Assembly: GCF_035513255.1 (NCBI RefSeq) | Contig: NZ_DATKCI010000015.1 | From: Piscinibacter sp. | GTDB taxonomy: Bacteria; Pseudomonadota; Gammaproteobacteria; Burkholderiales; Burkholderiaceae_C | Length of the DNA: 64,000 bases | Reading direction: 5' to 3' (one strand) | Part shown: positions 7,130-26,238 of the stretch, in pieces | How the letters are laid out: each line of letters opens with the position of its first letter | Position numbering within the stretch: the first letter of the stretch is position 1 | The notes under the pieces: model-generated | The model's database searches: none | The model's input: only the letters and a program-made list of their open reading frames with translations | Told to the model about the DNA's origin: nothing | Program-made: the position numbers and the translations under genes

Positions 7130-7144
7130 TGTTTGGAGAATGAC

Positions 7145-7570: not shown

Positions 7571-7574
7571 TCCG

Positions 7575-7898: not shown

Positions 7899-7959
7899 GC
7901 GATTTCCCGACCTGAAGAGGCGCAACGCCGCGCCTCTGCGGTGTCGCCTGAGCATTCCC

Positions 7960-8478: not shown

Positions 8479-8482
8479 CGAC

Positions 8483-10339
<1,857 letters not shown>

Positions 10340-10708: not shown

Positions 10709-11767
10709 CGCCAGCGGCGTGGCCGTTTGCTGCATGTCGAGCTCGGCCCGCATCCGCGGCAGCGCCTGCGGATGCTCGCGCTGAATGAAGCCGATCAGGG
10801 CTTCGCGCAGCTCGCAGCGCAGTTCGAAGTTCTGCGACGACGAAGCCGAGCTCGCGAGGATGCGCAGCTGCATGCAGCGTTCGCTCGCATCGGTGACCTG
10901 CACGGCGCACACGCGCCGGTCCCAGTTCGGGGACGCCTCGCACACACGCTGCGCCTCGCCTCGGATCGGCTCGACCGGCAGCGTGTAGTCGACCCACAGC
11001 ATCACGGTGCCCAGCAGATCGGCGCTGCACCGGGTCCAGTTCTGAAACGGATTTTCGATGAACCACGACAGCGGGACAACGAGGCGTCGCTCGTCCCAGA
11101 TCTTCAGCACGACGAAGGTCGACGTGATTTCCTCGACCCGGCCCCATTCGCCCTCGACGATGAGTACGTCGTCGATGCGGATCGGCTGCGCCAGCGCGAT
11201 CTGCAAGCCGGCCAGCAGGTTGCTGAATACCGACCGCGCGGCGATGCCGACGATCAGTCCGGCGACGCCGGCCGAGGCGAGCAGGCTCGCGCCGAGCTGC
11301 CGCGCGCGCGGGAACGTCATGAGGATGAAGGCGACACCGGCGAAGAGCACCACGCCGATGGCGATGCGCGCAAGCACGCGGGTCTGGGTTTGCACCCGCC
11401 GCGCTTCGAGGTTGTCGGCAACGTTCGACGGATTCAAGGCGACCACGCCGTTTGCGACGCCCTGGATCGCTGCCGCGGCGAGCCAACTGACGGTTGCGAT
11501 GGTCAGAATGCCGTTCAGGTGCTGCACGGCGGCGAGGCCGGGGAGCTCGTCCGGCACACCTTGCCAGACAACCTGCAGCGCGGCCAGTGGCAGGAGGAAC
11601 TGCGCCGGCCGGTCGCATTGCCGGACGACGGCGCTGAGCACGGTGGAGAAGCCGGCAAGACGGTAGGCCAGCGAGCGCAGCAGTCGGTGTGCGACGAGCG
11701 CGGCGAGTACGACGGCGACCGCCAGCAGGGCCAGCCGGCCCCAGGGGCCAAGGTTCGGCAGATCCAT
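10706..11767 (-). CDS. MscS-family mechanosensitive channel
   Basis: LLASAGVAGLIVGIAA..SNLLAGLQIAL.QPIRIDD, GEWGRVEEI, RRLVVP motifs. Confidence 0.9.
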   Translation of the reverse strand: MDLPNLGPWGRLALLAVAVVLAALVAHRLLRSLAYRLAGFSTVLSAVVRQCDRPAQFLLPLAALQVVWQGVPDELPGLAAVQHLNGILTIATVSWLAAAAIQGVANGVVALNPSNVADNLEARRVQTQTRVLARIAIGVVLFAGVAFILMTFPRARQLGASLLASAGVAGLIVGIAARSVFSNLLAGLQIALAQPIRIDDVLIVEGEWGRVEEITSTFVVLKIWDERRLVVPLSWFIENPFQNWTRCSADLLGTVMLWVDYTLPVEPIRGEAQRVCEASPNWDRRVCAVQVTDASERCMQLRILASSASSSQNFELRCELREALIGFIQREHPQALPRMRAELDMQQTATPLA

Positions 11768-11789
11768 CGAGTCAGGTTAGCATGGCCCC

Positions 11790-12614
11790 ATGAACAGGTT
11801 GCAATACGCCCTCGTCGCCGTGCTGGCCGTAGTCGTGATCGCAGTCGGCGTGATGTTTTGGAAGGAGCGGGAGGCCGAACCGCCGCCGCCGATGCAGCCG
11901 CCGGTGGCGGCCGTGCCGCCCGAGCCGGCCGCGCCCGCGCCGTCGGAGCCGGCGATCAAACACCCGATCGAGTCGGCGCCGGTGGCCGAAACGCCCGCCG
12001 CCGCGCCGCTCGACCTCGTCGGCGAGCTCACCGGCCTGTTCGGACGCAAGGCCGTGCTGTCGATGCTGCAGACCGACGACTTTCCGCGCCGCTTCGTCGC
12101 CACGGTCGACAACCTGACGCGCCCGCAGGCGCCGGTCAGTGTCTGGCCGGTGAACCCGACGCCGGGGCGTTTCACGGTGGGCAGCGAGGGCGGCGAAGAG
12201 GTGATCAGCGCCGACAACGGCTTGCGCTATACGCCCTTCATGCTGCTGGTCGAGACGGTGGAGATGCGCGAGGCGGTCGCCGTGTACGTCCGCCAGTACC
12301 CGCTGTTCCAGCAGGCCTATGAAGAGCTGGGCTACCCGAAGCAGTACTTCAACGACCGGCTTGTCCAAGTCATCGACCACCTGCTGGCCACGCCCGAGCC
12401 CACCGGGCCGCTGAAGGTGCGCCTGACGGAGGTTCGCGGGCCGGTGCAGCCGGAGCGCCCGTGGGTGTTCTACGAGTTCGCCGATCCGGCACTCGAGTCG
12501 CTGTCTTCCGGCCAGAAGATCCTGCTGCGCATGGGCCCCGTCAATGAACGGCGGATGAAGGCGAAGCTCGCTGAAATCCGGCGCCTCGTGACCGGCGGTG
12601 CCGTCGGTCGCTAG
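11790..12614 (+). CDS. DUF3014-like membrane-anchored protein
   Basis: N-terminal TM, Pro-rich linker, RRFVATVDN, YPLFQQAYEELGYP..YFNDRLV, LSSGQKILLRMG pattern recalled for DUF3014. Confidence 0.8.
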   Translation: MNRLQYALVAVLAVVVIAVGVMFWKEREAEPPPPMQPPVAAVPPEPAAPAPSEPAIKHPIESAPVAETPAAAPLDLVGELTGLFGRKAVLSMLQTDDFPRRFVATVDNLTRPQAPVSVWPVNPTPGRFTVGSEGGEEVISADNGLRYTPFMLLVETVEMREAVAVYVRQYPLFQQAYEELGYPKQYFNDRLVQVIDHLLATPEPTGPLKVRLTEVRGPVQPERPWVFYEFADPALESLSSGQKILLRMGPVNERRMKAKLAEIRRLVTGGAVGR

Positions 12615-12642
12615 AACCCGCTATCGCGCTCTATCCATCGTG

Positions 12643-13833
12643 ATGCCCAGCTTGCTGCCGGTGGCCGCCGACCTGGCGTGGCCGTTTGCCGTGGCCCTCG
12701 CCTGGATCGCCGGCGAACTGGGCCACCGGTGGCTGCGCCTGCCTCGCATCAGCATGTACGGGCTGGTCGGCTTCGGCCTGGCCGCCACGCAGCTCGGGGT
12801 GCTGCCGTCGGCAGCCGACAGCGGCAGCACGATGCTGCTGGCCAACATCGCGTTCGGGCTGATCCTGTTCGAGTTCGGCTACCGCATCAACCTGCGCTGG
12901 CTGCGCACGAACCCGTGGATCGCGGCCACCGGGCTGTTGGAGGCCGCGGCCACGTTCGTGGCGGTCTACGTCGTGGCCGCCGGCTTCGGCATGTCCGCGC
13001 TGACCTCGCTGCTGCTGGCGTCGATTGCGATGTCGACCTCGCCGGCGGCCGTGATGCGCGTCGTCAACGAGCAGCGCAGCTCCGGGCAGGTGACCGAGCG
13101 GGTGCTGCATCTGTCCGCGTTCAATTGCGTGCTCGCCGTGTTCGCGTTCAAGGTCGTCGTCGGCTTCTGGACCTACGAGAGTTCCGGCAGCGTGCTGCAT
13201 GCGGTCTCGAACAGCCTGGTCGTACTCGGCGCCTCCGCGGGGCTGGGGGCCGTCTTCGGCCTCGGCGTGCCGGCGCTGCTCAGGCGGATCGGCCGGCTCA
13301 GCCGCGATGCGACGGTGGCATTTGCGCTCGCCGTGATCCTGCTGGTTGCGATCACACATGCGCTGAAGCTGTCGCCGGTGCTGGCGGCGCTGACTTTCGG
13401 CTTCGCCGCGCGCCACCGGCGCGTGGCGCTGAACCAGGCGCAGCGCAACTTCGGCGCGCTCGGCGACCTGCTCGCGATCGTGCTGTTCGTGTTCGTCGCG
13501 ACCACGCTCGAATGGCATCGCGTGCTGGCCGGCGCCGGGCTGGCGCTCGCGCTGATCGCCGTGCGCTCGGCCGCCAAGGTGCTCGCGGTGGCCTCGCTCG
13601 CGCGCGTGAGCGGCGTGTCGTGGCGCAAGGGCGTGCTGACCGGCTTGGCGCTGACTCCGATCTCGGTATTCGCGATCCTCGTGCTCGAGGAATCGCGCTT
13701 TCTCGGCATCGACTTCATCGACCAGCTCGCGCCACTGGCGGCGGCCACGCTGCTGCTCGACCTGATCGGTCCGGTGGTGACGCAGCGCAGTCTGATGGCC
13801 GCCGGCGAGAGCGCCGAATCCACGGACACATGA
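12643..13833 (+). CDS. Cation:proton antiporter (CPA2-like, no KTN domain)
   Basis: About 12 hydrophobic segments, LILFEFG, STSPAAV, LTPIS motifs; start ATG 12643. Confidence 0.8.
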
Positions 13834-13834
13834 C

Positions 13835-14974
13835 ATGCCGCTAGAACCCTTCAAGACCTCCGAGCCACTGACCTTGGGCGTCGAGCTCGAGCTGCAGCTC
13901 GTCAGCCTGAGCAACCTGGATCTGATCGACGCCAGCCCCGACATGCTGGACCTCTTGAACCGGCGGCATTTTCCGGGCAACGTCGTGCCGGAGATCACCG
14001 AAAGCATGATCGAGGTATCGACCGACATCCATACCGGCCACGCCGGCCTGGTGGAGCAGCTGCGGCTCATCCGAGATTCGCTGGTGGCCGCCGGCGACAT
14101 GCTCAACGTCGGGATGTGCGGCGGCGGCACGCATCCGTTCCAGCAATGGTCCGAGCGCAAGATCTTTTCCAAGCCGCGCTTCAAGGAGGTGTCGCTGCTG
14201 TACGGCTACCTGGCCAAGCAGTTCACGATCTTCGGCCAGCACGTGCACGTCGGCTGCGCGTCAGGCGACGACGCGCTGCTCCTGCTGCATTCGCTGAGCC
14301 GCTACGTGCCGCATTTCATCGCACTGTCGGCGTCGTCGCCGTTCGTGCAGCGCAAGGACACGCTGTTCCAGTCGTCGCGGCTCAATTCGGTGTTCGCGTT
14401 CCCGCTGAGCGGCCGGGCGCCGTTCGCGCTGCAATGGAGCGACTTCGAAGGCGGCTACTTCGCCCGGATGGAGCACACCGGCATCGTCAAGAGCATGAAG
14501 GACTTCTACTGGGACATCCGGCCCAAGCCGGAGTTCGGCACGATCGAGCTGCGCGTGTGCGACACGCCGCTGACGGTGGAGCGCGCCGCGGCGCTCGCTG
14601 CTTACCTGCAGGCCTTGTGCCGCTGGCTGCTCGAACGCAGCGAGCCGGCCCCGACGGAAGACGACTACCTGGTCTACAACTACAACCGCTTCCAGGCCTG
14701 CCGCTTCGGCCTCGACGGTACGGTCGTGCACCCGAAGACCTATGAGACGCTGTCGCTGCGCGAGGACATCCTCGCCACGCTGCGCCGCCTGCAGCCGCAC
14801 GCCGAGGCGCTGGGCGGCGTGCCGGCACTGGAGCACCTGTACGACACCACGCACCAGGGCAGCGATGCGAGCTACCTGCGCCGGCAGTACGAGGAGCGCG
14901 GCAGTTCCGAGGGCATGGTGGATTCGGCGATCCGCTGTTTTCGCGAGAGCGGCGTACAGCAGGGGTCTTCGTAG
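13835..14974 (+). CDS. ybdK: YbdK-family carboxylate-amine ligase (GCS2)
   Basis: [43 protein letters not shown]. Confidence 0.9.
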
Positions 14975-14995
14975 CCCGGATGAAATCCGGGCTAC
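14971..14995. repeat. GTAG-type REP, perfect palindrome
   Basis: GTAGCCCGGAT-GAA-ATCCGGGCTAC; same core at 24311, 50207, 58913. Confidence 0.9.
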
Positions 14996-15025
14996 GGACG
15001 TCAACCGAGTCAATCCAGGTCGACC

Positions 15026-15063
15026 GGCGCCAATACGGTGCCTCACCGCCCTTGCATGGGGCA
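15026..15063 (+). promoter_or_regulatory. Paired NtrC-like enhancer boxes
   Basis: GGCGCCAATACGGTGCC (15026-15042) and CGCCCTTGCATGGGGCA (15047-15063), centres 21 bp apart, resemble TGCACCA-N3-TGGTGCA, upstream of a sigma54 promoter. Confidence 0.6.
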
Positions 15064-15114
15064 TGCTTGAACGCCGGCGGCTCGTGCATCGATGCAATGA
15101 GGCGCCGTGTTCGG

Positions 15115-15130
15115 TGGCACCTGTCTTGCT
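15115..15130 (+). promoter_or_regulatory. sigma54 (-24/-12) promoter of the flavoprotein-cytochrome operon
   Basis: TGGCAC-CTGTC-TTGCT, exact consensus. Confidence 0.9.
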
Positions 15131-15169
15131 AAGACCTGCCCCAAGCGGCGTTCGAGACGCTGCGCGGAA

Positions 15170-15254
15170 GCCAACGGCGGCCTCGGCGCAGCGTGAACGT
15201 TCGGGGACAACGAAGTCCAGCCTGCCATCGCGGCGGGCTGGACTTTTTTCTTTT
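15170..15254 (+). promoter_or_regulatory. ANTAR (NasT) tandem-hairpin leader with overlapping intrinsic terminator
   Basis: P1 GCC-AACGGC-GGC (15170-15181), P2 GGAC-AACGAA-GTCC (15205-15218), both A1/G4 hexaloops; the P2 3' arm overlaps terminator AGTCCAGCCTGCC..GGCGGGCTGGACT-TTTTT. Confidence 0.9.
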
Positions 15255-15267
15255 GAGGAACGCGTCA

Positions 15268-17262
15268 GTGCTTGCAGAAGTGCGCATCGAGATCGCAGCG
15301 GTCGCGGCGCGGCCGGTGGCCGATGCGCCCGTCGTCGTCGTCGGCGCCGGGCCGGTCGGCGTGCGTTTCGCGCAGGAGCTGCGCCGGCGCTGTCCCCAGC
15401 AGCCGCTGGTGGTCTACGGCAGCGAGCCTTGGGCGCCGTACAACCGGGTGCAGCTCTCCGCCTTTCTGGCCGGCAAAACCGATTGGTCATCGCTGACGCA
15501 AGGCCTCGCGCTGCCCGAAGACCCGAACGCGGACGTTCGGCTGCATTGCGCGGTGACCGCCATCGATCGCGCGGGGCGGTGCGTACAGGATGCGAGCGGC
15601 CGCTGGCAGCCGTATGCCAGCCTCGTGCTGGCCATCGGATCGCGCGCTCGCGTGCCCGACATTCCCGGCATCGGTCAGGCCAACGTCTTCGTCTTCCGCG
15701 ACCTCAACGACACGCAGCGGCTTTTCGCGCGGCGCGCGCGCAGCCGACGCACGGTGGTGCTCGGCGGTGGCCTGCTGGGGCTCGAGGCGGCGCGCGCGAT
15801 GCAGCGGCTGAACACCGACGTGTGGGTGATCGAACATGCGCCGCGGCTGATGGCAAGCCAGCTCGACGACGAAGGCTCAGCGCTGCTGCGCGCGCAGGTG
15901 GAGGCGGCGGGCATCCACGTGCTGACCGACACGCGTGTCAAGGCGGTGCACGGGCACGGGCGCGTCGAGGGTGTCGCGCTGCGCGGCGGCGAGCGCGTCG
16001 ATTGCGACACGGTTGTCGTTGCTGCCGGCATCCAGCCGAACGTCGACCTCGCGGTCGCCTGCGGTCTGCCGGTGGGGCGCGGCATCCGCGTGGACGACGC
16101 GATGCGCACCGGCGATCCGCACATCTACGCGATCGGTGAATGCGCGGAACACCGCGGTGCGGTCTACGGCATCGTCGCACCCGGCTTCGAGCAGGCGTCG
16201 GTCGCCGTGCACAGCGTCGCCGGCGGACAGGCGCATTACGAAGGCTCGCTGGTCGCGACACGCCTGAAAGTGCTAGATCTGCCGGTGTTCTCGATGGGCC
16301 AGCTCGGCCTCGCGGGGGACGACGCCGAGCTGCGCAGCGTGTGTCACGACGCCGGCGCCGACGGTACACACCGCCGGATCGCGGTGCGGCGCGGCCGCCT
16401 CGTCGGCGCGCTCGCGGTCGGGGCTTGTCGCGAAATGAGCCGGCTGCAGGAGGCGGTGCTCGCACGCCGCCGCGTGATGCCCTGGCAACTTTGGCGGTTC
16501 CGCCGCAGCGGCTCGCTGTGGCCCGCGGAAGAAGCGACCAGCGTCGTGCATTGGCCCGGTGCCGCGATCGTCTGCAACTGCAACGGCGTCACGCGCGCGC
16601 AGCTGGGCGACGCGATGAAGGCCGGCTGCCGCAGCGTCGGCGAACTGGCGGCGTGCACCCGAGCGTCCACCGTCTGCGGTTCGTGCAAGCCGCTGCTGGC
16701 GGAACTCGCGGGGAGCGGCGCGGCGCCGGAGCCGGTGCGCGGCTGGCGCGGGCTCGCCGCCGTCGCATTGATCGCGTTCGCCTTCGCGCTCGCGATCGCC
16801 GTGCTGCCGGGGCTTCCCTACATGGACTCGGTGCAGGCCGCATGGCAGTGGGATCGCCTGTGGCGCGATAGCTTGTACAAGCAGGTGAGCGGATTCGGCG
16901 TGCTGGGCTTGACGGCGATCGGGCTGTTGCTGACGTTTCGCAAGCGCATCGCCCGCCTGCGCCTCGGGCATTTCGACACCTGGCGCTTCGCCCATGTCGC
17001 GATCGGCCTCGCGGTGCTCGCCGTGTTGTACGTGCACACCGGCGGGCGACTCGGCAGCCAGCTCGACGGCGCGCTGATGGTGGCGTTCACCGGCCTGATC
17101 CTCGTCGGCGGCGCGAGCGCCGCCGTCATCGCGTTCGAACACCGCCTGGCGCCGTCTCTCGTTCGGCGCTGGCGCAGCCGCAGCGTGTGGCTGCACATCC
17201 TTCTGTTCTGGCCCGTACCCGTCCTGCTCGGCTTTCACGTGCTCAAGAGCTACTACTTCTGA
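15268..17262 (+). CDS. NirB-like NAD(P)H:FAD oxidoreductase + BFD [2Fe-2S] domain fused to a ferric-reductase/NOX-like diheme-b membrane domain
   Basis: VGAGPVG, LGGGLLGLEAA, IYAIGEC; CNC...CGSC; five C-terminal TMs with two H-X13-H pairs; no siroheme/[4Fe-4S] domain. GTG start after GAGGA. Confidence 0.85.
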   Translation: MLAEVRIEIAAVAARPVADAPVVVVGAGPVGVRFAQELRRRCPQQPLVVYGSEPWAPYNRVQLSAFLAGKTDWSSLTQGLALPEDPNADVRLHCAVTAIDRAGRCVQDASGRWQPYASLVLAIGSRARVPDIPGIGQANVFVFRDLNDTQRLFARRARSRRTVVLGGGLLGLEAARAMQRLNTDVWVIEHAPRLMASQLDDEGSALLRAQVEAAGIHVLTDTRVKAVHGHGRVEGVALRGGERVDCDTVVVAAGIQPNVDLAVACGLPVGRGIRVDDAMRTGDPHIYAIGECAEHRGAVYGIVAPGFEQASVAVHSVAGGQAHYEGSLVATRLKVLDLPVFSMGQLGLAGDDAELRSVCHDAGADGTHRRIAVRRGRLVGALAVGACREMSRLQEAVLARRRVMPWQLWRFRRSGSLWPAEEATSVVHWPGAAIVCNCNGVTRAQLGDAMKAGCRSVGELAACTRASTVCGSCKPLLAELAGSGAAPEPVRGWRGLAAVALIAFAFALAIAVLPGLPYMDSVQAAWQWDRLWRDSLYKQVSGFGVLGLTAIGLLLTFRKRIARLRLGHFDTWRFAHVAIGLAVLAVLYVHTGGRLGSQLDGALMVAFTGLILVGGASAAVIAFEHRLAPSLVRRWRSRSVWLHILLFWPVPVLLGFHVLKSYYF

Positions 17263-17264
17263 GC

Positions 17265-18707
17265 ATGCGACGAGACCAACGACGACTCTGGATCACCTGG
17301 GGACTGCTGACCGTGATCATCGCCGCCACGTTCGCCACCGCGCTGCTGTGGAAGCGCTCGGCCACGCTGCCGGTGCTCGCGAGCGCACGCGCGGCCTTGG
17401 TGCCCGGCCAGACGACGCACGGCCACCACCAGATCGAACTCGCCTGCGAGAGCTGCCACAGCTCGCCGTTCGGCGGCGGCGCCGTGATGCAGGAGGCCTG
17501 CGTGAATTGCCACGGCGCGGCGCTGAAGGAAGGCGACGACAAGCACCCGGCGTCGAAGTTCGACGACCCGCGCAACGCGTTCCGCCTCGCGAAGATCGAT
17601 GCGCAACAGTGCATCGCCTGTCATGTCGAGCACCGTCCGGCCGCAACGCACGCGATGGGCCTCACGCAGCCGAAGGACTACTGCTTCCACTGCCACAGCG
17701 GCCCGGACGAGATGCCGGCCGACCACAAGGGCCTGCCTTTCGACGGCTGCATGGCGGCCGGCTGCCACAACTACCACGACAACCGGGCGCTGTACGAAGA
17801 CTTCCTGCTGAAGCACGCCGGCGAGCCGCCGTTGCTGGACAAGCGGCAGCTGCCCGAACGCGACCTGCTGACGGCGCTGCAGGAGTCGCTGGCCTACCCG
17901 CAGGCGCGTTATCCGGTCCAGCCGTTGGCGGCCGCGGCGGTCGACGCACCGCGGGGTCACCGTGCCGATCCCAAGATTCACGCCGACTGGCTGGGCACCG
18001 CGCATGCGAAGGCCGGCGTCAACTGCAGCGGCTGCCACGTCGTCGGCGCCACGGTGCCCGAAGGCGAACCGCGTCCGGCGAACGATGGGCAATGGGTCGA
18101 GCGCCCGGCCACGCCGCAGTCCTGCCAAGGGTGCCATGTGGTGGAGACGAAAGGCTTTCTTTCGGGCAAGCACGGCATGCGCTTGGCGCAGGGCCTGTCG
18201 CCGATGGCGCCCGCACAAGCCAGGCTGCCGATGCGCAGCGAGGCGGCGCACGCCGAGCTGAGCTGCACGAGCTGCCACACCGCGCACCGCTTCGACACGA
18301 AGGCGGCGGCGGTCGATTCCTGCCTCTCGTGCCATGACGACACACACTCGCTGGCCTACAAGCAGTCGCCGCACCGCGAGCTGTGGCGGCGTGAACTGCA
18401 GGGCGAGCTGCCGCCGGGCTCCGGTGTCACCTGCGCGAGCTGCCACATGCCGCGGGTCCGCGTGAGCACCGACGAAGGTTCGCGCATGGCCGTGCAGCAC
18501 AACCAGAACGACACGTTGCAGCCCAACGAAAAGATGATCCGGCCCGCCTGCATGAGCTGCCATGGCCTGGGCTTTTCCATCGATGCCTTGGCCGATCGCG
18601 CGCTGATCGATCGCAACTTCGCGGGCCAGCCGTCGCGCCACGTCGAAAGCATTGACATGGCGGTGCGCAAGGACCAGCAGTCATCGCGTGCACGCGAGCG
18701 GCCGTGA
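17265..18707 (+). CDS. Membrane-anchored multiheme cytochrome c (10 CxxCH + 1 CX4CH)
   Basis: N-terminal TM anchor; CESCH, CVNCH, CIACH, CFHCH, CMAAGCH, CSGCH, CQGCH, CTSCH, CLSCH, CASCH, CMSCH; ATG 2 nt after the upstream stop. Confidence 0.92.
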   Translation: MRRDQRRLWITWGLLTVIIAATFATALLWKRSATLPVLASARAALVPGQTTHGHHQIELACESCHSSPFGGGAVMQEACVNCHGAALKEGDDKHPASKFDDPRNAFRLAKIDAQQCIACHVEHRPAATHAMGLTQPKDYCFHCHSGPDEMPADHKGLPFDGCMAAGCHNYHDNRALYEDFLLKHAGEPPLLDKRQLPERDLLTALQESLAYPQARYPVQPLAAAAVDAPRGHRADPKIHADWLGTAHAKAGVNCSGCHVVGATVPEGEPRPANDGQWVERPATPQSCQGCHVVETKGFLSGKHGMRLAQGLSPMAPAQARLPMRSEAAHAELSCTSCHTAHRFDTKAAAVDSCLSCHDDTHSLAYKQSPHRELWRRELQGELPPGSGVTCASCHMPRVRVSTDEGSRMAVQHNQNDTLQPNEKMIRPACMSCHGLGFSIDALADRALIDRNFAGQPSRHVESIDMAVRKDQQSSRARERP

Positions 18708-18759
18708 CCGCCGGCATCGCGGCCGTCGCCATCCCTTTTTCAACCCCGAGGAGAGAACC

Positions 18760-19317
18760 ATGAAACCGAGTCGACATCTTCCGATCCTTCTGGCTGCGCT
18801 GGTTGCCGGCGGCACGGCCGCCGCCGAGGGCATATCGCCGCAGCAGATGACCGACGCGCTGCATGCCGTGATGGCCGCCGACCGCGCCGTCTACACCAAG
18901 CTGATCGTCAACCGGCTGCAGAACGAAGAGAAGCTCATCAAGGCCAGTGAGCACTGGAAGGACGACAAGGCCCTCGTGTTGCCGGCGCAGATGTTCCGCT
19001 ATGGCGCGGAGGAGGTGGCCAAGACCAACAAGAGCTTCAGCTACTCGCTGCTGTCGACCTGGCCGGTGAACAAGCAGAACGCGCCGCGCACACCGGCGGA
19101 GAAGGAGGGCCTCGCGTTCATCGAGAAGAACCCGACGAAGGCCTACTACAAGACGGAGGACCTCGGTGGCAAGAAGTTCTTCACGGCCGTCTACGCGGAC
19201 CGGGCCATCGCGCCGGCCTGCATCACCTGCCACAACCAGCACAAGGACAGCCCGCGCACCGACTTCAAGATCGGCGACACGATGGGCGGCGTGGTCATCC
19301 GCGTGCCGATGAACTGA
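18760..19317 (+). CDS. Secreted mono-heme c protein, Tll0287-like/DUF3365 family
   Basis: Sec signal (..GGTAAA/EG), LPAQM, PVNKQNAP, ACITCH near the C-terminus, GDTMGGVVIRVP; RBS GAGGAG. Confidence 0.8.
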   Translation: MKPSRHLPILLAALVAGGTAAAEGISPQQMTDALHAVMAADRAVYTKLIVNRLQNEEKLIKASEHWKDDKALVLPAQMFRYGAEEVAKTNKSFSYSLLSTWPVNKQNAPRTPAEKEGLAFIEKNPTKAYYKTEDLGGKKFFTAVYADRAIAPACITCHNQHKDSPRTDFKIGDTMGGVVIRVPMN

Positions 19318-19349
19318 GCATCCAAGCAACCCAGCCGAAAGGACACCTC

Positions 19350-19763
19350 ATGACACCGCAACAAGTCGCCCTGGTTCAGGCCTCGTGGCAAAAAATCGTG
19401 CCGATCAAGGACAAGGCCGCCGAGCTCTTCTACGGCAAGCTGTTCGAGATGGACCCCTCGCTGAAACCCCTGTTCAAGGGAGACATGGCCGACCAGGGCC
19501 GCAAGCTCACCGCGATGATCAACACCGCGGTCGTCAACCTGCACCAGCTCGACGGCATCGTCGGCGCCGTGCAGGACCTGGGCCGCCGCCACGTCGGCTA
19601 CGGCGTGAAGGACGAGCACTACGACACGGTCGGCGGCGCGCTGCTGTGGACCTTGGGTGCCGGCCTCGGCGACGCGTTCACCGACGACGTGAAGACCGCG
19701 TGGACGCAAACCTACGGCATTCTGGCCAGCGCGATGAAGGGGGCGGCGAAAGCGCCGGCCTGA
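19350..19763 (+). CDS. Single-domain bacterial globin (flavohemoglobin-like globin domain only)
   Basis: B10 Tyr (LFY), CD1 Phe (LFK), E7 Gln (DQGRKL), F8 His (RRHVGYGV); no reductase domain. Confidence 0.92.
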   Translation: MTPQQVALVQASWQKIVPIKDKAAELFYGKLFEMDPSLKPLFKGDMADQGRKLTAMINTAVVNLHQLDGIVGAVQDLGRRHVGYGVKDEHYDTVGGALLWTLGAGLGDAFTDDVKTAWTQTYGILASAMKGAAKAPA

Positions 19764-19799
19764 CATCGGTTTGGTGCGCCGCAGCACCGATGTGGTTCG
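19762..19799 (+). promoter_or_regulatory. Paired NtrC-like boxes upstream of the ABC transporter promoter
   Basis: GACATCGGTTTGGTGCG and AGCACCGATGTGGTTCG, centres 21 bp apart as in the first pair; the same bases also form a hairpin. Confidence 0.45.
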
Positions 19800-19859
19800 C
19801 AGAGCTCGGCGAGCGCGCGCATAGCGTGCGCCCGCCGGGCGACACAGCTGGAAACGGCG

Positions 19860-19875
19860 TGGCACGCGACCTGCT
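19860..19875 (+). promoter_or_regulatory. sigma54 promoter of the nitrate-type ABC operon
   Basis: TGGCAC-GCGAC-CTGCT (one mismatch at -12). Confidence 0.75.
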
Positions 19876-19885
19876 ATGACTCTCC

Positions 19886-20000
19886 CGAGACCACAGCATC
19901 GTGGTCTCGACAACTCACGAACATTGGGCAACGGCGTCCGATCGTTCAGTACGCAGCTTTTGCCGGTTGCGTGCTGGCGATCGGCCGCCGTTTGTCTTTT
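19886..20000 (+). promoter_or_regulatory. Second ANTAR-type leader with long terminator hairpin
   Basis: Hairpin CGAGACCAC-AGCATC-GTGGTCTCG, then GGGC-AACGGC-GTCC, whose loop pairs alternatively with CGCCGTTTGTC-TTTT in a ~70-nt stem. Confidence 0.7.
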
Positions 20001-20030
20001 CCCGAATCGATTTGCACCAGGAGATCCTCG

Positions 20031-21404
20031 ATGACGTCCGCCCGCTCCCGACTGAACCGTCGCCGCTTCCTCGCCAACGCGACCGCACTCGCCGGCGCCT
20101 CGACGATCGCCCTGCCGGGATTCGCGCAGAAGAAGGATCGCCCCGAGAAGGAGGTGCTGAAGTTCGGCTTCATCAAGCTGACCGACTGCGTGCCGCTGAT
20201 CATCGCCTACGAGAAGAAGTACTTCGACGACGAGGGGCTGTTCGTCACGCTCGAAGCGCAGGCCAACTGGAAGGTGCTGCTCGACCGCGTGATCGACGGC
20301 CAGCTCGACGGCGCGCACATGCTCGCCGGCCAGCCGCTGGGCGCGAGCGTGGGCTTCGGCACCAAGGCCGACGTGATCACCGCCTTCAGCATGGACCTGA
20401 ACGGCAACGCGATCACCGTCTCGAACGCGGTGTGGAAGGAGATGAAGCCGCTGCTCCCGATGGAAGACGGCCGCGTGAAGCACCCGATCAAGGCCGACGT
20501 GCTGAAGAAGGTCGTCGACAAGTACAAGCAGCAGGGCAAGCCGTTCAAGATGGGCATGGTGTTCCCGGTCTCCACGCACAACTACGAGCTGCGCTACTGG
20601 CTAGCCGCCGGCGGACTGAAGCCCGGCTACTACACGGCCGGCGACATCACCGGCACGTCGGATGCCGACGTGCTGCTGTCGGTCACGCCGCCGCCGCAGA
20701 TGCCCGCCACGCTGGAGGCCGGCACGATCAACGGCTACTGCGTCGGCGAGCCGTGGAACCAGCAGGCGGTGTTCAAGGGCATCGGCGTGCCCGTGATCAC
20801 CGACTACGAGATCTGGAAGAACAACCCCGAGAAGGTCTTCGGCGTCACGCGCGGCTGGGCCGAACAGAACCCGAAGACGCACATCGCCGTCGTCAAGGCG
20901 CTGATCCGCGCCTGCATGTGGCTCGATGCCAGCATGGCCAACCGCGTCGAGGCGGTGAAGCTGCTGTCCAAGTCGAACTACGTCGGCGCCGACGAAGAGG
21001 TTATCGGCAACAGCATGACCGGCACCTTCGAATACGAGAAGGGCGACAAGCGGCCGCTGCCGGACTTCAACGTCTTCTTCCGCTACCACGCGACCTATCC
21101 GTTCTACAGCGATGCGATCTGGTACCTGACGCAGATGCGTCGCTGGGGGCAGATCACCGAGAACAAGCCCGACAGCTGGTACTTCGAGACCGCGAAGAAG
21201 GTCTACCGGCCGGAGATCTACATGCAGGCGGCCAAGGCGCTCGTGGCCGAAGGCAAGGCGAAGGAGAGCGACTTCCCGATGAAGAGCGACGGCTACCGCG
21301 GCCCGCAGGAAGGATTCATCGACGGCATCGTCTACGACGCGAAGAAGCCCAACGACTACCTGCGCAAATTCAAGATCGGCCTGAAGGCGGACAAGAGCGT
21401 CTGA
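20031..21404 (+). CDS. nrtA: Nitrate/nitrite-type ABC transporter substrate-binding protein (NrtA/CmpA family)
   Basis: Tat signal RRRFL; [37 protein letters not shown]. Confidence 0.88.
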
Positions 21405-21438
21405 CGTGCCTGCGGCACATGCGGCAAAGGAGCCTGCA

Positions 21439-22407
21439 ATGGAACAAGTGATGAAGCTGTTTGGCGGCCTCGCGGCCAGCGACCCTCGCGAGCTCGCACG
21501 TTCGCTGATGTTGAACCTCGGCGTGCCGGTGATCGCGTTCGCGCTGTTCCTCTCGCTGTGGGCATTCGGTGCGTCGCGCGTGCAGACCAGCCTCGGCGCC
21601 GTGCCCGGGCCGGCGCAGGTGCTGGCCCAGGCGAAGGCGCTGTTCGACGATCACGTCGAGGAGCGTGCCAAGCGCGCCGAGTTCTACGAGCGGCAGGCGC
21701 AGCGCAACCGCGAGCGGCTGGCGGAAGATCCGAACGCCGAAGTGCGCGTGTTCAACTGGACCGGCAAGCCGACTTACCTGGACCAGATCGTCACGAGCCT
21801 GATCACGGTGTTCACCGGCTTCCTGATCGCCACCGCCGTCGCCGTGCCGGTGGGCATTCTCTGCGGCTCGTCGCGCATCGTGCAGGCCGCGCTGAACCCG
21901 ATGGTGCAGGTGTTCCGGCCGGTGTCGCCGCTGGCCTGGCTGCCGATCGTGACGCTGATCGTCAGCGCGGTCTACGTGACCGCCGGCGAGCCGATGTTCC
22001 AGAAGTCGTTCCTGATCTCGGCCATCACCGTGACGCTGTGTTCGCTGTGGACCACGCTGCTGAACACCGCAATCGGCGTCACGTCGGTCGACAAGGACCT
22101 GGTCAACGTCGGCCGCGTGCTGCAACTGCCGTGGACGACCCGCGTGCGCAAGATCGTGCTGCCGTCGGCACTGCCCTACATCTTCACCGGCATGCGGCTG
22201 TCGCTCGGCGTCGGCTGGATGGTGCTGATCGCCGCGGAGATGCTCGCGCAGAACCCGGGGCTCGGCAAGTTCGTCTGGGACGAATTCCAGAACGGCAGCT
22301 CCGACTCGCTGAGCCGCATCATGGTCGCGGTGTTCACGATCGGCATCATCGGCTTTCTGCTCGACCGGCTGATGCTCGGCTTGCAGCACCTGGCGTCGCG
22401 CGCATGA
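21439..22407 (+). CDS. nrtB: Nitrate-type ABC transporter permease
   Basis: [33 protein letters not shown]; long periplasmic insertion after TM1. Confidence 0.88.
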
Positions 22408-24236
22408 ACGGGCTGTTGAAAAGCATGAACAACGCAGCCACCGTGCCCCTGGTCGATGCGAGCGCCGCTGCCGCAGCGCCGCGGATCGCGGCCGTTCCCG
22501 ATGCGGCGGCGCTCGAGTTGCGCGGCGTCGCCAAACGCTACGGCAGCGGCCGTGCTGCCACCGAGGTGCTGCACGACATCAACCTGCGCATCGCGCCGGG
22601 TGAGTTTGTTGCGATCGTCGGCTTTTCCGGCAGCGGCAAGACGACGCTCGTGAACCTGCTCGCGGGTCTCGCGACGGCCGACGACGGCGAGGTGCTCAAG
22701 CAAGGTCAACCGATCCGCGGACCGGGGCCGGACCGCGGCATCGTCTTTCAGAGCTATTCGCTGATGCCGTGGCTCACCGTGCGCCAGAACGTCGCGCTGG
22801 CGGTGGACTGCGTGTACGCCGGCGAGTCGGCCCGGGCGCGCGCCGAGCGGGTCAAGCATTACGTGGCGATGGTCGGCCTGAGCGCCGCCATCGACAAGAA
22901 GCCGGCGCAGCTGTCCGGCGGCATGCGCCAGCGCGTGTCGGTGGCGCGTGCGCTTGCGACCAACCCCGACGTGCTGCTGCTCGACGAGCCGCTGTCGGCG
23001 CTCGATGCGCTCACGCGCGCGAACCTGCAGGACGAGATCACCCGCATCTGGAGCGAGGAGAAGAAGACCGTTCTGCTGATCACCAACGACGTCGACGAGG
23101 CGCTGATCCTCGCGGACCGCATCATCCCGCTGAACCCGGGGCCGAAGGCGACCTTGGGACCCGCGTTCGAGGTCGACATCGCCAGGCCGCGCGACCGGCG
23201 CGAAATGAACCACGATGCCCGCTTCAAGGCGCTGCGCGGCGAGATCACGCAGTACCTGATCGACGTGGCGCACCGGCGCGAGGCGGGAACCAGCGCCAAG
23301 GTGATCCAGCTGCCGGTGCTCGTGCCGCGCGTGGAGGGCCGCAAGCTGCCGTCCCTCGCGTCGCTGGCGGGCATGCGGCATGCGGCGCAGCTCGAGGCGA
23401 TGGCGCAACGGGAGTCGGGCGCCGCGAAGACGGCCGAGCATGCGAAGTTGTCCGACGCGCGCTTTGTCGAGTTCTCGCAGGTCGTCAAGGTCTACCCGAC
23501 GCCGCGCGGCCCGCAGACCGTCGTCGACGGCTTCGACCTGAAGATGCGCAAAGGCGAGTTCGTCTCGGTGATCGGCCCTTCGGGCTGCGGCAAGTCGACG
23601 GTTCTGTCGATGGTCGCGGGGTTGACCGACATCACCGAGGGCGGCGTCATCCTCGACGGCCGCGAGATCGCCGGCGCCGCGCCGGACCGCGGCCTCGTGT
23701 TCCAGTCGCCGAGCCTCGTCCCCTGGCTCAGCGCGTACGAGAACGTGATGCTCGGCGTGCAACGTGTGTTCGCCGACGCGTCAGCGGCGCAGCGCCGCAG
23801 CACCGTCGAGTACTACCTGTCGCGGGTCGGCCTGGCCGATGCGATGCACAAGCGCGCCGGCGAGCTGTCCAACGGCATGAAGCAGCGCGTGGGCATCGCG
23901 CGCGCATTCGCGCTGAACCCCAAGTTGCTGCTGCTCGACGAGCCGTTCGGCATGCTGGACTCGCTGACGCGCTGGGACCTGCAGGAAGTGCTGATGGAGG
24001 TGTGGGCGCGCAACCAGGTCACGGCGATCATGGTCACGCACGACGTCGACGAAGCGATCCTGCTGGCCGATCGTGTGGTGATGATGACCAACGGCCCGAA
24101 CGCGAAGATCGGCAAGGTGATGGACGTGACGCTGCCGCGCCCGCGTTCGCGCGCCGCGCTGCTGGCGCATCCGCGCTACTACGAGTTGCGCGAGGAGCTG
24201 ATCACGTTCCTGGAAGACTGCGGCCGCCAGCATTGA
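22404..24236 (+). CDS. Fused tandem ABC ATPase (NrtC/NrtD-like double NBD)
   Basis: Two full NBDs in one frame: [24 protein letters not shown] and [24 protein letters not shown]. Confidence 0.9.
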
Positions 24237-24364: not shown

Positions 24365-25567
24365 TCACTCGCGCCGGCGGATCTTGAATGCGTCGGCATA
24401 GACCGCCGGCTCGGTTCCGTCCCAGACCACGCCGTCCATCAGACGGCTCGAGCGCATCGGGCTGGTCGGCACCGGAATGTTCAGCGCCGACGCCGCCTCG
24501 CGGTACAGCGCGATCTGGTTGATCTGAGACGCGACGCCGAGGTAGTCGGGGTGTTCCTTCAGGAGGCCCCATCGTTTCTGCTGCGTCAGGAACCACATGC
24601 CGTCCGACAGGTACGGGAAGTTCACTTCGCCGTCGCGGAAGAAGCTCATGTGGTGCGGGTCTTCCCAGGTCCGCCCGAGGCCGTTGGTGTAGCAGCCGAC
24701 GATGCGCTCGAGGATCACGTCGACCGAGGTGTCGACGAAAGGCTTGGCGGCGATCGTCTCGGCCATCTTGCGCCGGTTCGCCGCGGTCGCGTCGATCCAG
24801 CGGCTCGCCTCGAGCACCGCCATCACGACCGCGCGACAGGTGTTCGGGTAGCGCCGGACGTAGTCGGCCGTGCTCGCGACGACCTTTTCCGGGTGGTTGC
24901 GCCAGATGTCCTGCGAGCTTGCGGCATGCACCGACACGCCGTCGAGAATGCCGCGGTGGTTCCACGGCTCGCCGACCGAAAAACCGTCCATGTTGCCGGC
25001 GCGTGCGTTGGCGACCATCTGCGGCGGCGGCACGACGATGGTCTTCACGTCGGCGAACGGGTCGATGCCGGCCGAGGCGAGCCAGTAGTACAGCCACATC
25101 GCGTGCGTCCCGGTGGGGAAGGTTTGCGCGAAGGTGTAATCGCGCCGCTCGCTGCGCAGCAACACGGCCAGCGATCCGAGATCGACGGCCCCCTTGTCGG
25201 CGAGGCGCCGCGACAGCGACAGCCCCTGGCCGTTGTTGTTGATCGTCATCAGCACGGCCATGTCCTTCTTCGGGCCGCCGACACCGAGGTGAACGCCGTA
25301 GACGAGGCCGTACAGCACATGCGCCATGTCGATGTCGCCGCGCACCAGTTTGTCGCGCACGCCGGCCCAGGATGCTTCCTTCGTGGGCACGATGCGGATG
25401 CCGTGCTTCCGGTCGAAACCGAGCACCGACGCCATCACCACCGAGGCGCAGTCGGTCAGCGGCATGAAGCCGATGCGAACCTCCTCGCGCTCGGGCTTGT
25501 CGCTGCCGGCGAGCCGCAGGATGGGGCGGGGCGGTCGGCCATGGGGTCCGGGGACGGTGTGGTTCAT
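24365..25567 (-). CDS. nasS: Cytoplasmic nitrate/nitrite sensor NasS
   Basis: NrtA-like fold (IGFMPLTDCAS, FPTGTHAMWLYYWL, VGEPWN) but no signal peptide; directly downstream of an ANTAR regulator. Confidence 0.85.
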   Translation of the reverse strand: MNHTVPGPHGRPPRPILRLAGSDKPEREEVRIGFMPLTDCASVVMASVLGFDRKHGIRIVPTKEASWAGVRDKLVRGDIDMAHVLYGLVYGVHLGVGGPKKDMAVLMTINNNGQGLSLSRRLADKGAVDLGSLAVLLRSERRDYTFAQTFPTGTHAMWLYYWLASAGIDPFADVKTIVVPPPQMVANARAGNMDGFSVGEPWNHRGILDGVSVHAASSQDIWRNHPEKVVASTADYVRRYPNTCRAVVMAVLEASRWIDATAANRRKMAETIAAKPFVDTSVDVILERIVGCYTNGLGRTWEDPHHMSFFRDGEVNFPYLSDGMWFLTQQKRWGLLKEHPDYLGVASQINQIALYREAASALNIPVPTSPMRSSRLMDGVVWDGTEPAVYADAFKIRRRE

Positions 25568-25605
25568 GCGAAATCGAGCCTGACAGGGGAGGTGGAGTGC
25601 ATCGG

Positions 25606-26238
25606 TCAGCCCAGCAACTCGGCCACGTCGACGACGCGCTGCGCGACGTCGGCGATCTTCAGCCCCTTGTCCATCGCGGTCTTGCGCAGCCGCGCGTAGG
25701 CCTCGGGTTCGCCGATGTCGTGGCGCTTCATCAGCAGCCCCTTCGCTCGGTCGATCAGCTTGCGGTCGTTGAGCTGGTTGCGCGCCTCGGCGAGCGCCTG
25801 CAGCAGCGACTCCTGGTGCTGGAAGCGTGCCATCGCGACGTCGAGCACCGGCCGGATTCGCTCGGGTGCCAGGCCGGCGACCACGTAGGCCGTCACGCCG
25901 GCGGCGATTGCGTCACGCACGTGGGACGTGTCGTTGTCCTCGGTGAACAGCACGATCGGCCTGCGGGCGTCGCGCGTGGCCATCACGACGTGCTCCAGCG
26001 TGTCGCGCGCCTGGCTCTCGGCATCGATGATGATCATGTCGGGGCCGATCTGCGCGAGCCGGTCGGGCAGGAAGACGTCGGCCGGCAGCACGGCGACGAT
26101 GTTGTAGCCATGCTCGAGCATGCCGATGCGCAGGCTGCGCGAGCGCTCCGCCGCCACCTGCGCCTCGGGGTCGGCAGGGTCGGGGGCAAGCGTCTCGGGC
26201 GCGACGATGACGATGCGCAGGGCCTGGGCCGAGGTCAT
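25606..26238 (-). CDS. nasT: ANTAR-domain antiterminator NasT
   Basis: Pseudo-receiver (PDMIIIDAES) + ANTAR (DRKLIDRAKGLLM..EPEAYARLRKTAMD); start ATG 26238. Confidence 0.92.
   Translation of the reverse strand: MTSAQALRIVIVAPETLAPDPADPEAQVAAERSRSLRIGMLEHGYNIVAVLPADVFLPDRLAQIGPDMIIIDAESQARDTLEHVVMATRDARRPIVLFTEDNDTSHVRDAIAAGVTAYVVAGLAPERIRPVLDVAMARFQHQESLLQALAEARNQLNDRKLIDRAKGLLMKRHDIGEPEAYARLRKTAMDKGLKIADVAQRVVDVAELLG

What the first reader, a model, noticed from the sequence alone, without database searches (positions are those of the whole stretch)
19350..19763. Reductase-less globin placed under nitrate-assimilation control
A TyrB10/GlnE7 single-domain globin ends the operon. Such globins (Vgb/Cgb type) act as NO dioxygenases but need an external reductant and are usually controlled by NsrR/FNR-family regulators; here no separate promoter is evident and control appears to be sigma54/NasT. 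This implies that NO is expected as an intermediate or leak of the adjacent chain. NO dioxygenation regenerates nitrate, so N could be recycled; the NirB-like flavodomain could be the globin's reductant.
Basis: partly seen in the sequence, partly recalled or inferred. Interest (0 to 1): 0.6.

Follow-up and report, generated by a model that had tools for sequence, protein, structure and literature searches.

The report
Bjgb-type globin ending nitrate-switched haem operon
The gene is a real small haemoglobin with no reductase of its own, in the same family as the Bradyrhizobium globin Bjgb that removes nitric oxide during nitrate assimilation, so the idea is sound but already has a published precedent; what is new is that it closes an unstudied membrane and periplasmic haem operon.

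Summary
Observation confirmed. Window 19350-19763 (+) encodes a 137-aa cytoplasmic globin with invariant TyrB10, PheCD1, GlnE7 and HisF8. It starts 32 nt after the DUF3365 gene and is the last gene of a four-gene operon. That operon sits behind the window's only exact sigma54 promoter and an ANTAR-type leader with a terminator. nasS-nasT and nrtABC lie next door.

The globin is not Vgb/Cgb-type. Its closest solved relatives are the Methylacidiphilum globins HGbRL and HGbI, then neuroglobin. It is 49% identical to the globin in an nrtABC-narK-globin-flp-nasA locus, the published Bradyrhizobium Bjgb layout. The operon's flavodomain is 38-39% identical to the Flp-type protein there.

Of the 80 closest species, 43 place the globin after DUF3365 in this operon. 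Another 15 place it inside ordinary nitrate-assimilation clusters. Three genomes carry the operon with no globin at all, so the globin is an optional module.

Best reading (about 0.6): an NO-scavenging globin co-induced with nitrate assimilation and re-reduced by the NirB/Flp-type flavodomain. NO need not come from the adjacent haem chain.

It is a new member of a known kind. This scan has already met the same operon in at least nine other genomes. No activity was tested.

The parts
15115..15130 (+). sigma54 (-24/-12) promoter of the operon, TGGCAC-N5-TTGCT
   Evidence: It is the only zero-mismatch match to TGGCACNNNNNTTGCW in the 64-kb window. A sigma54 box with at most one mismatch lies upstream of the flavoprotein gene in 24 of 46 related operon leaders.
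15170..15256 (+). Leader with two ANTAR-type hexaloop hairpins (loops AACGGC at 15173-15178 and AACGAA at 15209-15214). The second hairpin overlaps the 5' arm of an intrinsic terminator (15212-15246 plus T-run).
   Evidence: The terminator has 15 pairs, 9 of them G-C, followed by a T-run. The leader folds at -70.1 kcal/mol, z -4.6. The hexaloops were read from the sequence. AAYGNN hexaloop hairpins occur at 2.5 per kb in operon leaders against 0.18 per kb in the background.
15268..17262 (+). Flavoprotein gene: NirB-N-half/NorW-like FAD-NAD(P)H domain plus BFD [2Fe-2S] domain, fused to a C-terminal membrane domain. It is the only cytoplasmic reductase in the operon and the candidate reductant of the globin.
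   Evidence: Pfam Pyr_redox_2 at 2e-57 and Fer2_BFD. NCBIfam NirB positions 1-464 of 794 and NorW at 2e-49. It is 38-39% identical to Flp-type proteins beside Bjgb-layout globins, and both halves are conserved in all operon loci.
17265..18707 (+). Membrane-anchored multihaem (about 11 CXXCH-type sites) cytochrome c gene
   Evidence: Translation and motifs. Pfam multihaem families. Conserved upstream of DUF3365 and the globin in related loci.
18760..19317 (+). Periplasmic DUF3365/Tll0287-like c-haem protein gene, directly upstream of the globin
   Evidence: Pfam Tll0287-like at 7e-19. It has a signal peptide and a CITCH motif. In 43 of 80 loci it lies directly upstream of the globin, sometimes with a small cytochrome c gene between them.
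19339..19343 (+). Ribosome-binding site AAGGA of the globin gene, inside the 32-nt gap
   Evidence: Read from the sequence.
19350..19763 (+). Single-domain globin, 137 aa, of the Bjgb/HGbI type; last gene of the operon
19763..19840 (+). Two G+C-rich hairpins after the globin stop, without a U-tract. They may end or stabilise the transcript, but they are not a canonical terminator.
   Evidence: Fold at -55.5 kcal/mol, z -2.3. No terminator was called here.
19860..19990 (+). Second sigma54-like box (19860-19875, one mismatch) and the nrtA leader, with an AAYGNN hairpin near 19930 and a terminator at 19975-19990
20032..24236 (+). Nitrate-type ABC importer genes (nrtA, nrtB, nrtC/D)
   Evidence: Pfam NMT1_2 at 2e-99, BPD_transp_1, and two ABC_tran domains.
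24365..26193 (-). nasS (24365-25567) and nasT (25606-26193, with an ANTAR domain): the nitrate/nitrite-responsive antitermination pair
   Evidence: Pfam NMT1_2 at 2e-92 and ANTAR at 9e-22. This is one of two ANTAR genes in the genome.

Best explanation
The gene encodes a cytoplasmic, reductase-less globin of the Bjgb/HGbI family. It is transcribed as the last gene of the operon, so it is made when nitrogen is scarce (sigma54) and nitrate or nitrite is present (NasS releases NasT, which overrides the leader terminator). Its most likely job is to scavenge nitric oxide made as a by-product of nitrate and nitrite reduction. With O2 it would oxidise NO back to nitrate, using the TyrB10/GlnE7 distal pocket. 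The ferric haem would be re-reduced with NAD(P)H by the cytoplasmic NirB/Flp-type FAD domain of the operon's first protein. The globin is an add-on module, not a core part of the transmembrane haem chain.

Shown here: the gene, its residues and fold, its position in the operon, the regulatory elements in the sequence, and the conserved linkage. Inferred: co-transcription, the NO chemistry and the identity of the reductase.
For: 1. Family. The globin is 49% identical (E 2e-38) to the globin in locus L110, which reads nrtABC-narK-globin-flp-nasA. This is the gene order published for Bradyrhizobium narK-bjgb-flp-nasC (PMC4724949). In that organism bjgb and flp mutants are sensitive to NO donors, and the operon is induced by nitrate through NasS-NasT under aerobic assimilatory conditions.
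2. Linkage. Of the 80 closest species, 43 place the globin directly after DUF3365 in flavoprotein-multihaem-DUF3365-(cytochrome c)-globin. Another 15 place it in nitrate-assimilation clusters such as nasT-nasS-globin-nrtB-nrtC-nirB-nirD-nasA.
3. Regulation. The window has an exact sigma54 box and two ANTAR-type hexaloop hairpins overlapping a terminator. The same elements are enriched about 14-fold in orthologous leaders. nasS-nasT lie 4.6 kb downstream.
4. Reductase. The window flavodomain is 38-39% identical to Flp-type proteins beside Bjgb-layout globins. It also matches NorW at E 2e-49. A Flammeovirga plasmid rebuilds globin, DUF3365, an FNR-type reductase and a cytochrome c3 in one cluster.
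5. Pocket. TyrB10, PheCD1, GlnE7, LeuE11, HisF8 and TyrG5 align with flavohaemoglobin globin domains.
6. Need. With these queries the genome shows no flavohaemoglobin, no Hcp and no clear NirS. It does have nirB-nirD-nasA behind sigma54 promoters.
Against: - No activity, expression or mutant data exist for this protein or for any operon-linked member.
- The closest solved relatives are not known NO dioxygenases. HGbI is a very high-affinity O2 binder. HGbRL is a putative sensor with Lys(E10)-His hexacoordination, and this globin keeps that Lys as K52.
- The Glu at H23 of the flavohaemoglobin proximal triad aligns to Ala.
- Relatives of 59% identity are N-terminal domains of HAMP/PAS/MCP chemoreceptors.
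- In Bradyrhizobium the bjgb mutant consumed more NO, not less, through NorCB induction, so even the precedent is indirect. Under denitrifying conditions narK-bjgb-flp expression rose in a nasT mutant (PMC6759348).
- The flavoprotein is membrane-bound and also serves the haem chain. Three genomes have the chain with no globin, so the flavoprotein is not dedicated to the globin.
Confidence: 0.6

Rival explanations
1. The globin is a gas or redox sensor for NO or O2. It would tune the flavoprotein, or the NasS-NasT switch, by protein contact, and would not turn NO over catalytically.
For: The best PDB sequence match is the globin domain of the putative sensor HGbRL, with the haem-ligating Lys52(E10) conserved. 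Family members of 59% identity are fused to HAMP/PAS/MCP signalling domains (L010). In several genomes the globin lies right beside or between nasT and nasS (L046, L100, L060, L006).
Against: The protein is a bare 137-aa globin with no output domain. In the only member studied genetically (Bjgb) the phenotype is nitrosative-stress sensitivity. It sits at the distal end of an enzyme operon, and in other genomes beside transport and reductase genes.
Confidence: 0.15
2. The globin is an obligatory step of a new N-oxide pathway run by the adjacent chain. The periplasmic haem proteins would make NO on purpose or as a main product, and the globin would convert it to nitrate so that nitrogen is recycled into assimilation.
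For: The globin lies directly after DUF3365 in the operon in 43 of 80 closest species from at least five phyla. An independent re-assembly of globin, DUF3365, a reductase and a cytochrome occurs on a Flammeovirga plasmid.
Against: In three genomes (G516, G531, G520) the flavoprotein, multihaem and DUF3365 genes are present but no homologue of this globin was found anywhere in the genome at E 1e-15. The globin also occurs in canonical nas clusters that lack the chain. On the tree the contexts interleave. The globin and the haem chain are on opposite sides of the membrane.
Confidence: 0.1
3. The globin handles O2 rather than NO. It would buffer or scavenge O2 for O2-sensitive Fe-S or molybdenum enzymes of nitrate assimilation, or act as a deoxy-globin nitrite or hydroxylamine reductase.
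For: HGbI, the closest fold (TM 0.91-0.95), has very high O2 affinity and slow autoxidation (PMC4476040). The family resembles neuroglobin.
Against: Nothing ties the gene to oxidases or O2-dependent enzymes. The recurrent partners are nitrate/nitrite transport, regulation and reduction genes. Bjgb genetics point to NO.
Confidence: 0.1

Closest known systems
Bjgb, the single-domain haemoglobin of Bradyrhizobium japonicum/diazoefficiens (narK-bjgb-flp-nasC; PMC4724949, PMC6759348, PMC6965051)
   Same: It belongs to the same globin family: 49% identity to the globin in a locus with that exact gene order. It has no reductase domain. It is co-encoded with a NirB-N-half-type flavoprotein (38-39% identity). 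It lies next to nrtABC and a NasS-NasT antitermination pair. In the published model, NO made during nitrate assimilation is removed by the globin, which Flp reduces.
   Different: Here the globin is not in an operon with nitrate reductase or NarK. It closes an operon of a membrane-fused flavoprotein, an 11-haem cytochrome and a DUF3365 haem protein. The putative reductase is membrane-anchored and carries a [2Fe-2S] domain. The promoter is sigma54-type. No experiments exist.
Hell's Gate globin I (HGbI, PDB 3S1I) and the globin domain of HGbRL (PDB 3WFW) of Methylacidiphilum infernorum
   Same: These are the closest solved structures. By sequence the E-values are 8e-30 and 7e-34. By fold HGbI gives TM 0.91-0.95 and rmsd 0.9 A. 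All are compact, lack a D helix, and share TyrB10, GlnE7, LysE10 and the same pocket numbering.
   Different: HGbI and HGbRL are not linked to nitrate assimilation. HGbRL is fused to a Roadblock/LC7 domain and forms a site-swapped dimer. Their functions are unknown; O2 binding and sensing have been proposed.
Vgb (Vitreoscilla), Cgb (Campylobacter) and the globin domain of flavohaemoglobin Hmp/FHP
   Same: They are M-family 3-on-3 globins with TyrB10, GlnE7, PheCD1, HisF8 and TyrG5. Cgb and Hmp have NO dioxygenase chemistry.
   Different: They are much more distant: E 1e-14 for Vgb, 2e-8 for Cgb and 3e-14 for FHP, with TM 0.83-0.86. The family separates from flavohaemoglobin globin domains with 100% branch support. 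The flavohaemoglobin 3-residue insert before E7 and the Glu at H23 are absent. Regulation differs too: NssR, FNR and NsrR for those (own knowledge), sigma54 plus ANTAR here.

Membership tests
Bjgb-type single-domain globin linked to nitrate assimilation | Globin fold with HisF8, TyrB10 and GlnE7, and no fused reductase | tested here: met
Bjgb-type single-domain globin linked to nitrate assimilation | Sequence homology to the globin in the narK-globin-flp-nasC layout | tested here: met
   49% identity, E 2e-38, to the globin of L110 (nrtABC-narK-globin-flp-nasA). The Bjgb reference sequence itself could not be fetched by name.
Bjgb-type single-domain globin linked to nitrate assimilation | Co-encoded NirB-N-half/Flp-type NAD(P)H flavoprotein | tested here: met
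   The first gene of the operon is 38-39% identical to Flp-type proteins of L110 and L125 over residues 15-385. NCBIfam NirB positions 1-464.
Bjgb-type single-domain globin linked to nitrate assimilation | Expression controlled by NasS-NasT and nitrate | tested here: inconclusive
   The sequence shows a sigma54 box, two A1/G4 hexaloop hairpins overlapping a terminator, and nasS-nasT nearby. No expression data exist.
Bjgb-type single-domain globin linked to nitrate assimilation | Protects against NO or consumes NO | not testable with these tools
   This needs a mutant and an enzyme assay.
HGbI/HGbRL group (compact neuroglobin-like bacterial globins without helix D) | Closest sequence and fold; helix D absent; pocket residues F27, Y28, L31, F42, K52, L53, V94, L98, R80, Y84 | tested here: met
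   The residues were read against PMC4476040.
Vgb/Cgb-type single-domain globins | Nearest relatives are Vgb, Cgb and flavohaemoglobin globin domains; proximal His-Tyr-Glu triad | tested here: not met
   Vgb, Cgb and FHP are 16 to 26 orders of magnitude weaker in E-value than HGbRL and HGbI. The flavohaemoglobin Glu at H23 aligns to Ala, while TyrG5 is kept. The family lies on a separate long branch.
Flavohaemoglobin (Hmp) | Globin fused to an FNR-like FAD/NAD reductase | tested here: not met
   The protein is 137 aa. NF009805 scores 74 bits against a cut-off of 432, over the globin part only.
Globin-coupled sensor | Globin fused to a signalling output domain | tested here: not met
   The ORF is stand-alone and ends at 19763. 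Some relatives (L010) are fused to HAMP/PAS/MCP domains.

The most novel reading that the evidence does not exclude
One membrane-bound NirB/Flp-type flavoprotein feeds two NO-handling arms at once. In the cytoplasm it would reduce the Bjgb-type globin, which dioxygenates NO back to nitrate. Through its di-haem membrane domain it would also reduce periplasmic haem proteins that deal with NO or another N-oxide outside. The operon would then be a two-compartment, nitrate-switched NO-disposal machine, of which the globin is the first component with a recognisable function.
Probability: 0.3. Interest if true: 0.6.

Novelty: new member of a known kind. Interest (0 to 1): 0.35.

Why it matters
The globin is the only operon protein that belongs to a family with a genetically studied member. 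It is therefore the best clue to what this widespread, uncharacterised NAD(P)H-to-periplasm haem operon is for: handling nitric oxide or a related N-oxide during nitrate assimilation. The comparison also extends the Bjgb family, and its link to nitrate-assimilation genes, well beyond rhizobia. Members of 60-83% identity occur in Beta-, Gamma- and Alphaproteobacteria, Planctomycetota, Verrucomicrobiota, Myxococcota and Bacteroidota. For the globin itself the concept is already published, so a specialist would be only mildly surprised.

Tried and rejected
Contexts of named homologues such as the Cupriavidus necator copy could therefore not be fetched. I used the genome search, the fetch from genomes and the search for related loci instead.
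- My first tblastn maps used an out-of-frame flavoprotein query (start 15269 instead of 15268) and an out-of-frame NasT query. Those two query rows are void. They were redone correctly. In one search the flavoprotein was still located through the genome's own NirB as query.
- An FNR/Dnr-type box near the globin: none found between 6867 and 22416.
- A sigma70-like promoter within 14800-20200: none found.
- A flavohaemoglobin elsewhere in the genome: not found with this query. Hcp: none. NirS: only a weak partial hit.
- The Bjgb sequence could not be obtained by name. Membership rests on a locus with the published gene order (L110).
- The careful maximum-likelihood tree did not finish. The quick tree is poorly resolved, with 57 of 115 forks open, and is used only for three well-supported splits.
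- Loci without nitrate genes (L022, L038, L068, L069, L090) have unrelated housekeeping neighbours. No alternative conserved partner emerged.
- The canonical nirB leader on contig C213 shows a sigma54 box but no clear ANTAR hairpins. I therefore cannot say that both loci share one NasT regulon.

Full report
**What is there**

Window 19350-19763 (+) is an ATG-started ORF of 137 codons. It has an AAGGA ribosome-binding site six bases upstream. The product matches Pfam Globin at E 9e-17. It has no signal peptide and no second domain. The NCBIfam flavohaemoprotein model matches only over the globin part, at 74 bits against a cut-off of 432.

In an alignment of 20 homologues (42-83% identity), F27, Y28, F42, Q49 and H81 are invariant. 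Against two flavohaemoglobin globin domains, these align with B10 Tyr, CD1 Phe, E7 Gln and F8 His. E11 Leu and G5 Tyr are also kept. The Glu at H23 of the flavohaemoglobin proximal triad aligns to Ala, and the three-residue insert before E7 is absent. The AlphaFold model (pLDDT 94.2) is a compact 3-on-3 globin without a D helix.

**Which globin it is**

It is not of the Vgb/Cgb type.

| Solved relative | Sequence E-value |
|---|---|
| HGbRL globin domain (3WFW) | 7e-34 |
| HGbI (3S1I) | 8e-30 |
| Neuroglobins | about 1e-18 to 1e-15 |
| Vgb | 1e-14 |
| FHP | 3e-14 |
| Cgb | 2e-8 |

Foldseek agrees. HGbI gives TM 0.91-0.95 at rmsd 0.9 A, neuroglobins about 0.9, and flavohaemoglobin and Vgb 0.83-0.86. 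The haem-pocket residues listed for N-HGbRL (Phe27, Tyr28, Leu31, Phe42, Lys52, Leu53, Val94, Leu98, Arg80, Tyr84; PMC4476040) are present at the same numbers here. They include Lys52(E10), which ligates the haem in the closed HGbRL form.

**Operon and control**

The gene begins 32 nt after the DUF3365/Tll0287-type c-haem protein gene (18760-19317). That gene follows a membrane-anchored cytochrome with about 11 haems (17265-18707). Before it comes a flavoprotein (15268-17262) made of a NirB-N-half/NorW-like FAD-NAD(P)H domain, a BFD [2Fe-2S] domain and a C-terminal membrane domain.

- No sigma70-like promoter or terminator lies inside the operon.
- No FNR-type box lies near the globin.
- Upstream of the first gene is the window's only exact TGGCAC-N5-TTGCT match, at 15115-15130.
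- The leader that follows carries two hairpins with A1/G4 hexaloops (AACGGC, AACGAA). The second overlaps a 15-pair terminator with a T-run.
- After the globin come two G+C-rich hairpins without a U-tract.
- Next is a second sigma54-like box with its own leader and terminator, followed by nrtA-nrtB-nrtC/D.
- nasS and nasT lie on the other strand at 24365-26193.

Co-transcription and NasT control are therefore well supported by the sequence, but they are untested.

**Comparative evidence**

The family is large: more than 5000 clusters at E below 1e-5, and 70-80% identity across Burkholderiales genera.

I scanned one genome per species with the family alignment and kept the 80 closest loci (60-83% identity). 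They come from Beta-, Gamma- and Alphaproteobacteria, Planctomycetota (Rhodopirellula baltica, Stieleria), Verrucomicrobiota, Myxococcota, Bacteroidota and Armatimonadota. I mapped the window's proteins, and the genome's own NirB, NirD, NasA and NarK, onto them.

| Context of the globin | Loci (of 80) |
|---|---|
| Directly downstream of DUF3365 in flavoprotein(+membrane domain)-multihaem-DUF3365-globin | 43 |
| Among nitrate-assimilation genes without DUF3365 | 15 |
| Neither | 22, of which 9 are on contigs too short to judge |

In the second group a recurring order is nasT-nasS-globin-nrtB-nrtC-nirB-nirD-nasA. One locus has nasT-globin-nasS.

The DUF3365-to-globin gap is bimodal, either 19-140 nt or about 350-490 nt. 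The long gaps hold a fifth gene, a small periplasmic monohaem cytochrome c that the window lacks.

In proteobacterial operon loci a sigma54 box with at most one mismatch precedes the flavoprotein gene in 24 of 46 leaders. AAYGNN hexaloop hairpins occur at 2.5 per kb there against 0.18 per kb in the background. The Planctomycetota and Verrucomicrobiota loci lack both elements.

**Link to the published system**

In a sample of 151 genomes from the order of a Hyphomicrobiales MAG, 34 have a homologue. One locus, L110, from an 8.0-Mb genome, reads nrtABC-narK-globin-flp-nasA. This is the gene order published for Bradyrhizobium blr2803-05 plus narK-bjgb-flp-nasC. Its globin is 49% identical to the window's.

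The Flp-type proteins of L110 and L125 are 38-39% identical to residues 15-385 of the window flavoprotein.

In Bradyrhizobium, bjgb and flp mutants are sensitive to NO donors. bjgb is needed for anaerobic growth on nitrate. Flp is proposed as the electron donor to Bjgb. The operon is induced by nitrate through NasS-NasT under aerobic assimilatory conditions (PMC4724949). Regulation is more complex under denitrifying conditions (PMC6759348). An earlier survey had already noted that rhizobial single-domain globins are flanked by nitrate and nitrite genes (PMC4648194).

- The globin is optional for the operon. In a 400-genome sample of the phylum, three genomes have DUF3365 orthologues. All three carry flavoprotein-multihaem-DUF3365(-cytochrome c), but none has a homologue of this globin at E 1e-15.
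- In the 201-genome Burkholderiales sample, all five genomes with a strong DUF3365 orthologue, the window's own included, have the globin next to it. One of these five is G026, which is flagged unpublished. The statement holds as four of four without it.
- The globin also lives in canonical nas clusters that lack the chain. On a quick and poorly resolved tree the three contexts interleave. The whole family is separated from flavohaemoglobin domains (100% support), and the nasS-globin-nrtB group (97%) and the Bjgb-layout group (95%) are clades.

So the constant partner is nitrate and nitrite assimilation with a NirB-type flavodomain, not the haem chain. NO need not be a product of the adjacent chain.

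The own genome has a normal nirB-(NIT-domain protein)-nirD-nasA cluster on contig C213, with sigma54 boxes and a second ANTAR gene beside it. With these queries it shows no flavohaemoglobin, no Hcp and no clear NirS.

**Rival readings**

- A sensing role cannot be excluded. The best PDB match is a putative sensor's globin domain. LysE10 is conserved. Relatives of 59% identity are N-terminal domains of HAMP/PAS/MCP receptors. Several genomes place the gene beside nasT and nasS.
- A Flammeovirga plasmid carries hemA-globin-DUF3365-hypothetical-FNR-type reductase-cytochrome c3. This is an independent re-assembly. It argues that the globin, the DUF3365 protein, a multihaem cytochrome and an NAD(P)H reductase work together in some way.
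- A 2026 preprint on DUF3365 proteins reports no gene-neighbourhood pattern for the stand-alone members. I found no description of this operon in the papers I searched.

**Verdict**

- The globin is a new member of a known kind, the Bjgb type, in a new operon context.
- This scan has already met the same operon in at least nine other genomes, with the same closest-known system named. Those are unverified AI notes and are not counted as evidence here.

Noticed in passing
Own genome contig C213, about 11500-24000 (outside the window): There is a canonical nitrate-assimilation cluster here. It holds a second nasT (ANTAR at 13531-13689, minus strand) with a NasS-like ORF, a NarK-like MFS gene (start 14305), nirB (start 17590), a Tat-signal NIT-domain-like protein, nirD and nasA. 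Sigma54 boxes lie at 14163 and 17538. So the genome is not missing a sirohaem nitrite reductase, and it has two NasT paralogues.
   Followed up: partly
L023-L099, gap between DUF3365 and globin (e.g. L030:8605-9001): About half of the related operons carry a fifth gene in this gap. It encodes a periplasmic monohaem cytochrome c of 110-130 aa (CxxCH ... MPPRGG). The window lacks it; its gap is 32 nt.
   Followed up: partly
L134, L135, L136 (genomes G516, G531, G520): These loci hold flavoprotein-multihaem-DUF3365(-cytochrome c) operons. No homologue of this globin was found anywhere in those genomes at E 1e-15. These are globin-less versions of the operon.
   Followed up: yes
L010:7962-10799 (+); L011 is similar: A 945-aa protein has an N-terminal globin 59% identical to the window globin. 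The globin is fused to HAMP, PAS and MCP signalling domains. This is an M-family globin-coupled chemoreceptor.
   Followed up: partly
L130 (Flammeovirga kamogawensis plasmid p1, NZ_CP076130.1, record 321834-327587): The annotated cluster reads hemA, globin family protein, DUF3365 protein, hypothetical protein, ferredoxin-NADP reductase, cytochrome c3 family protein. It has the same parts with a different reductase family and order.
   Followed up: no
L046:8449-11032; also L100, L060, L006: The globin gene lies between or directly beside nasT and nasS in several Thiobacillus- and Hydrogenophilales-type genomes.
   Followed up: no
L058 and L077 (Flavobacteriaceae MAG contigs): Two globin copies of this family lie head to tail, about 20 nt apart.
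   Followed up: no
window 5251-10339 (+): An ordinary isc cluster: an Rrf2/IscR-type regulator, IscS, IscU, HscB and HscA. It is unrelated to the finding.
   Followed up: no
Genomes of the window's own family (f1): No DUF3365 orthologue was found in the 12 sampled genomes of the same family. Of the 4 of these searched for the globin, none has a family member; one has only a distant flavohaemoglobin-type match (31% identity, E 5.5e-14). The closest globin (83% identity, L002/L022) lies in another family and has no operon context. This patchy distribution suggests horizontal transfer of the island.
   Followed up: no
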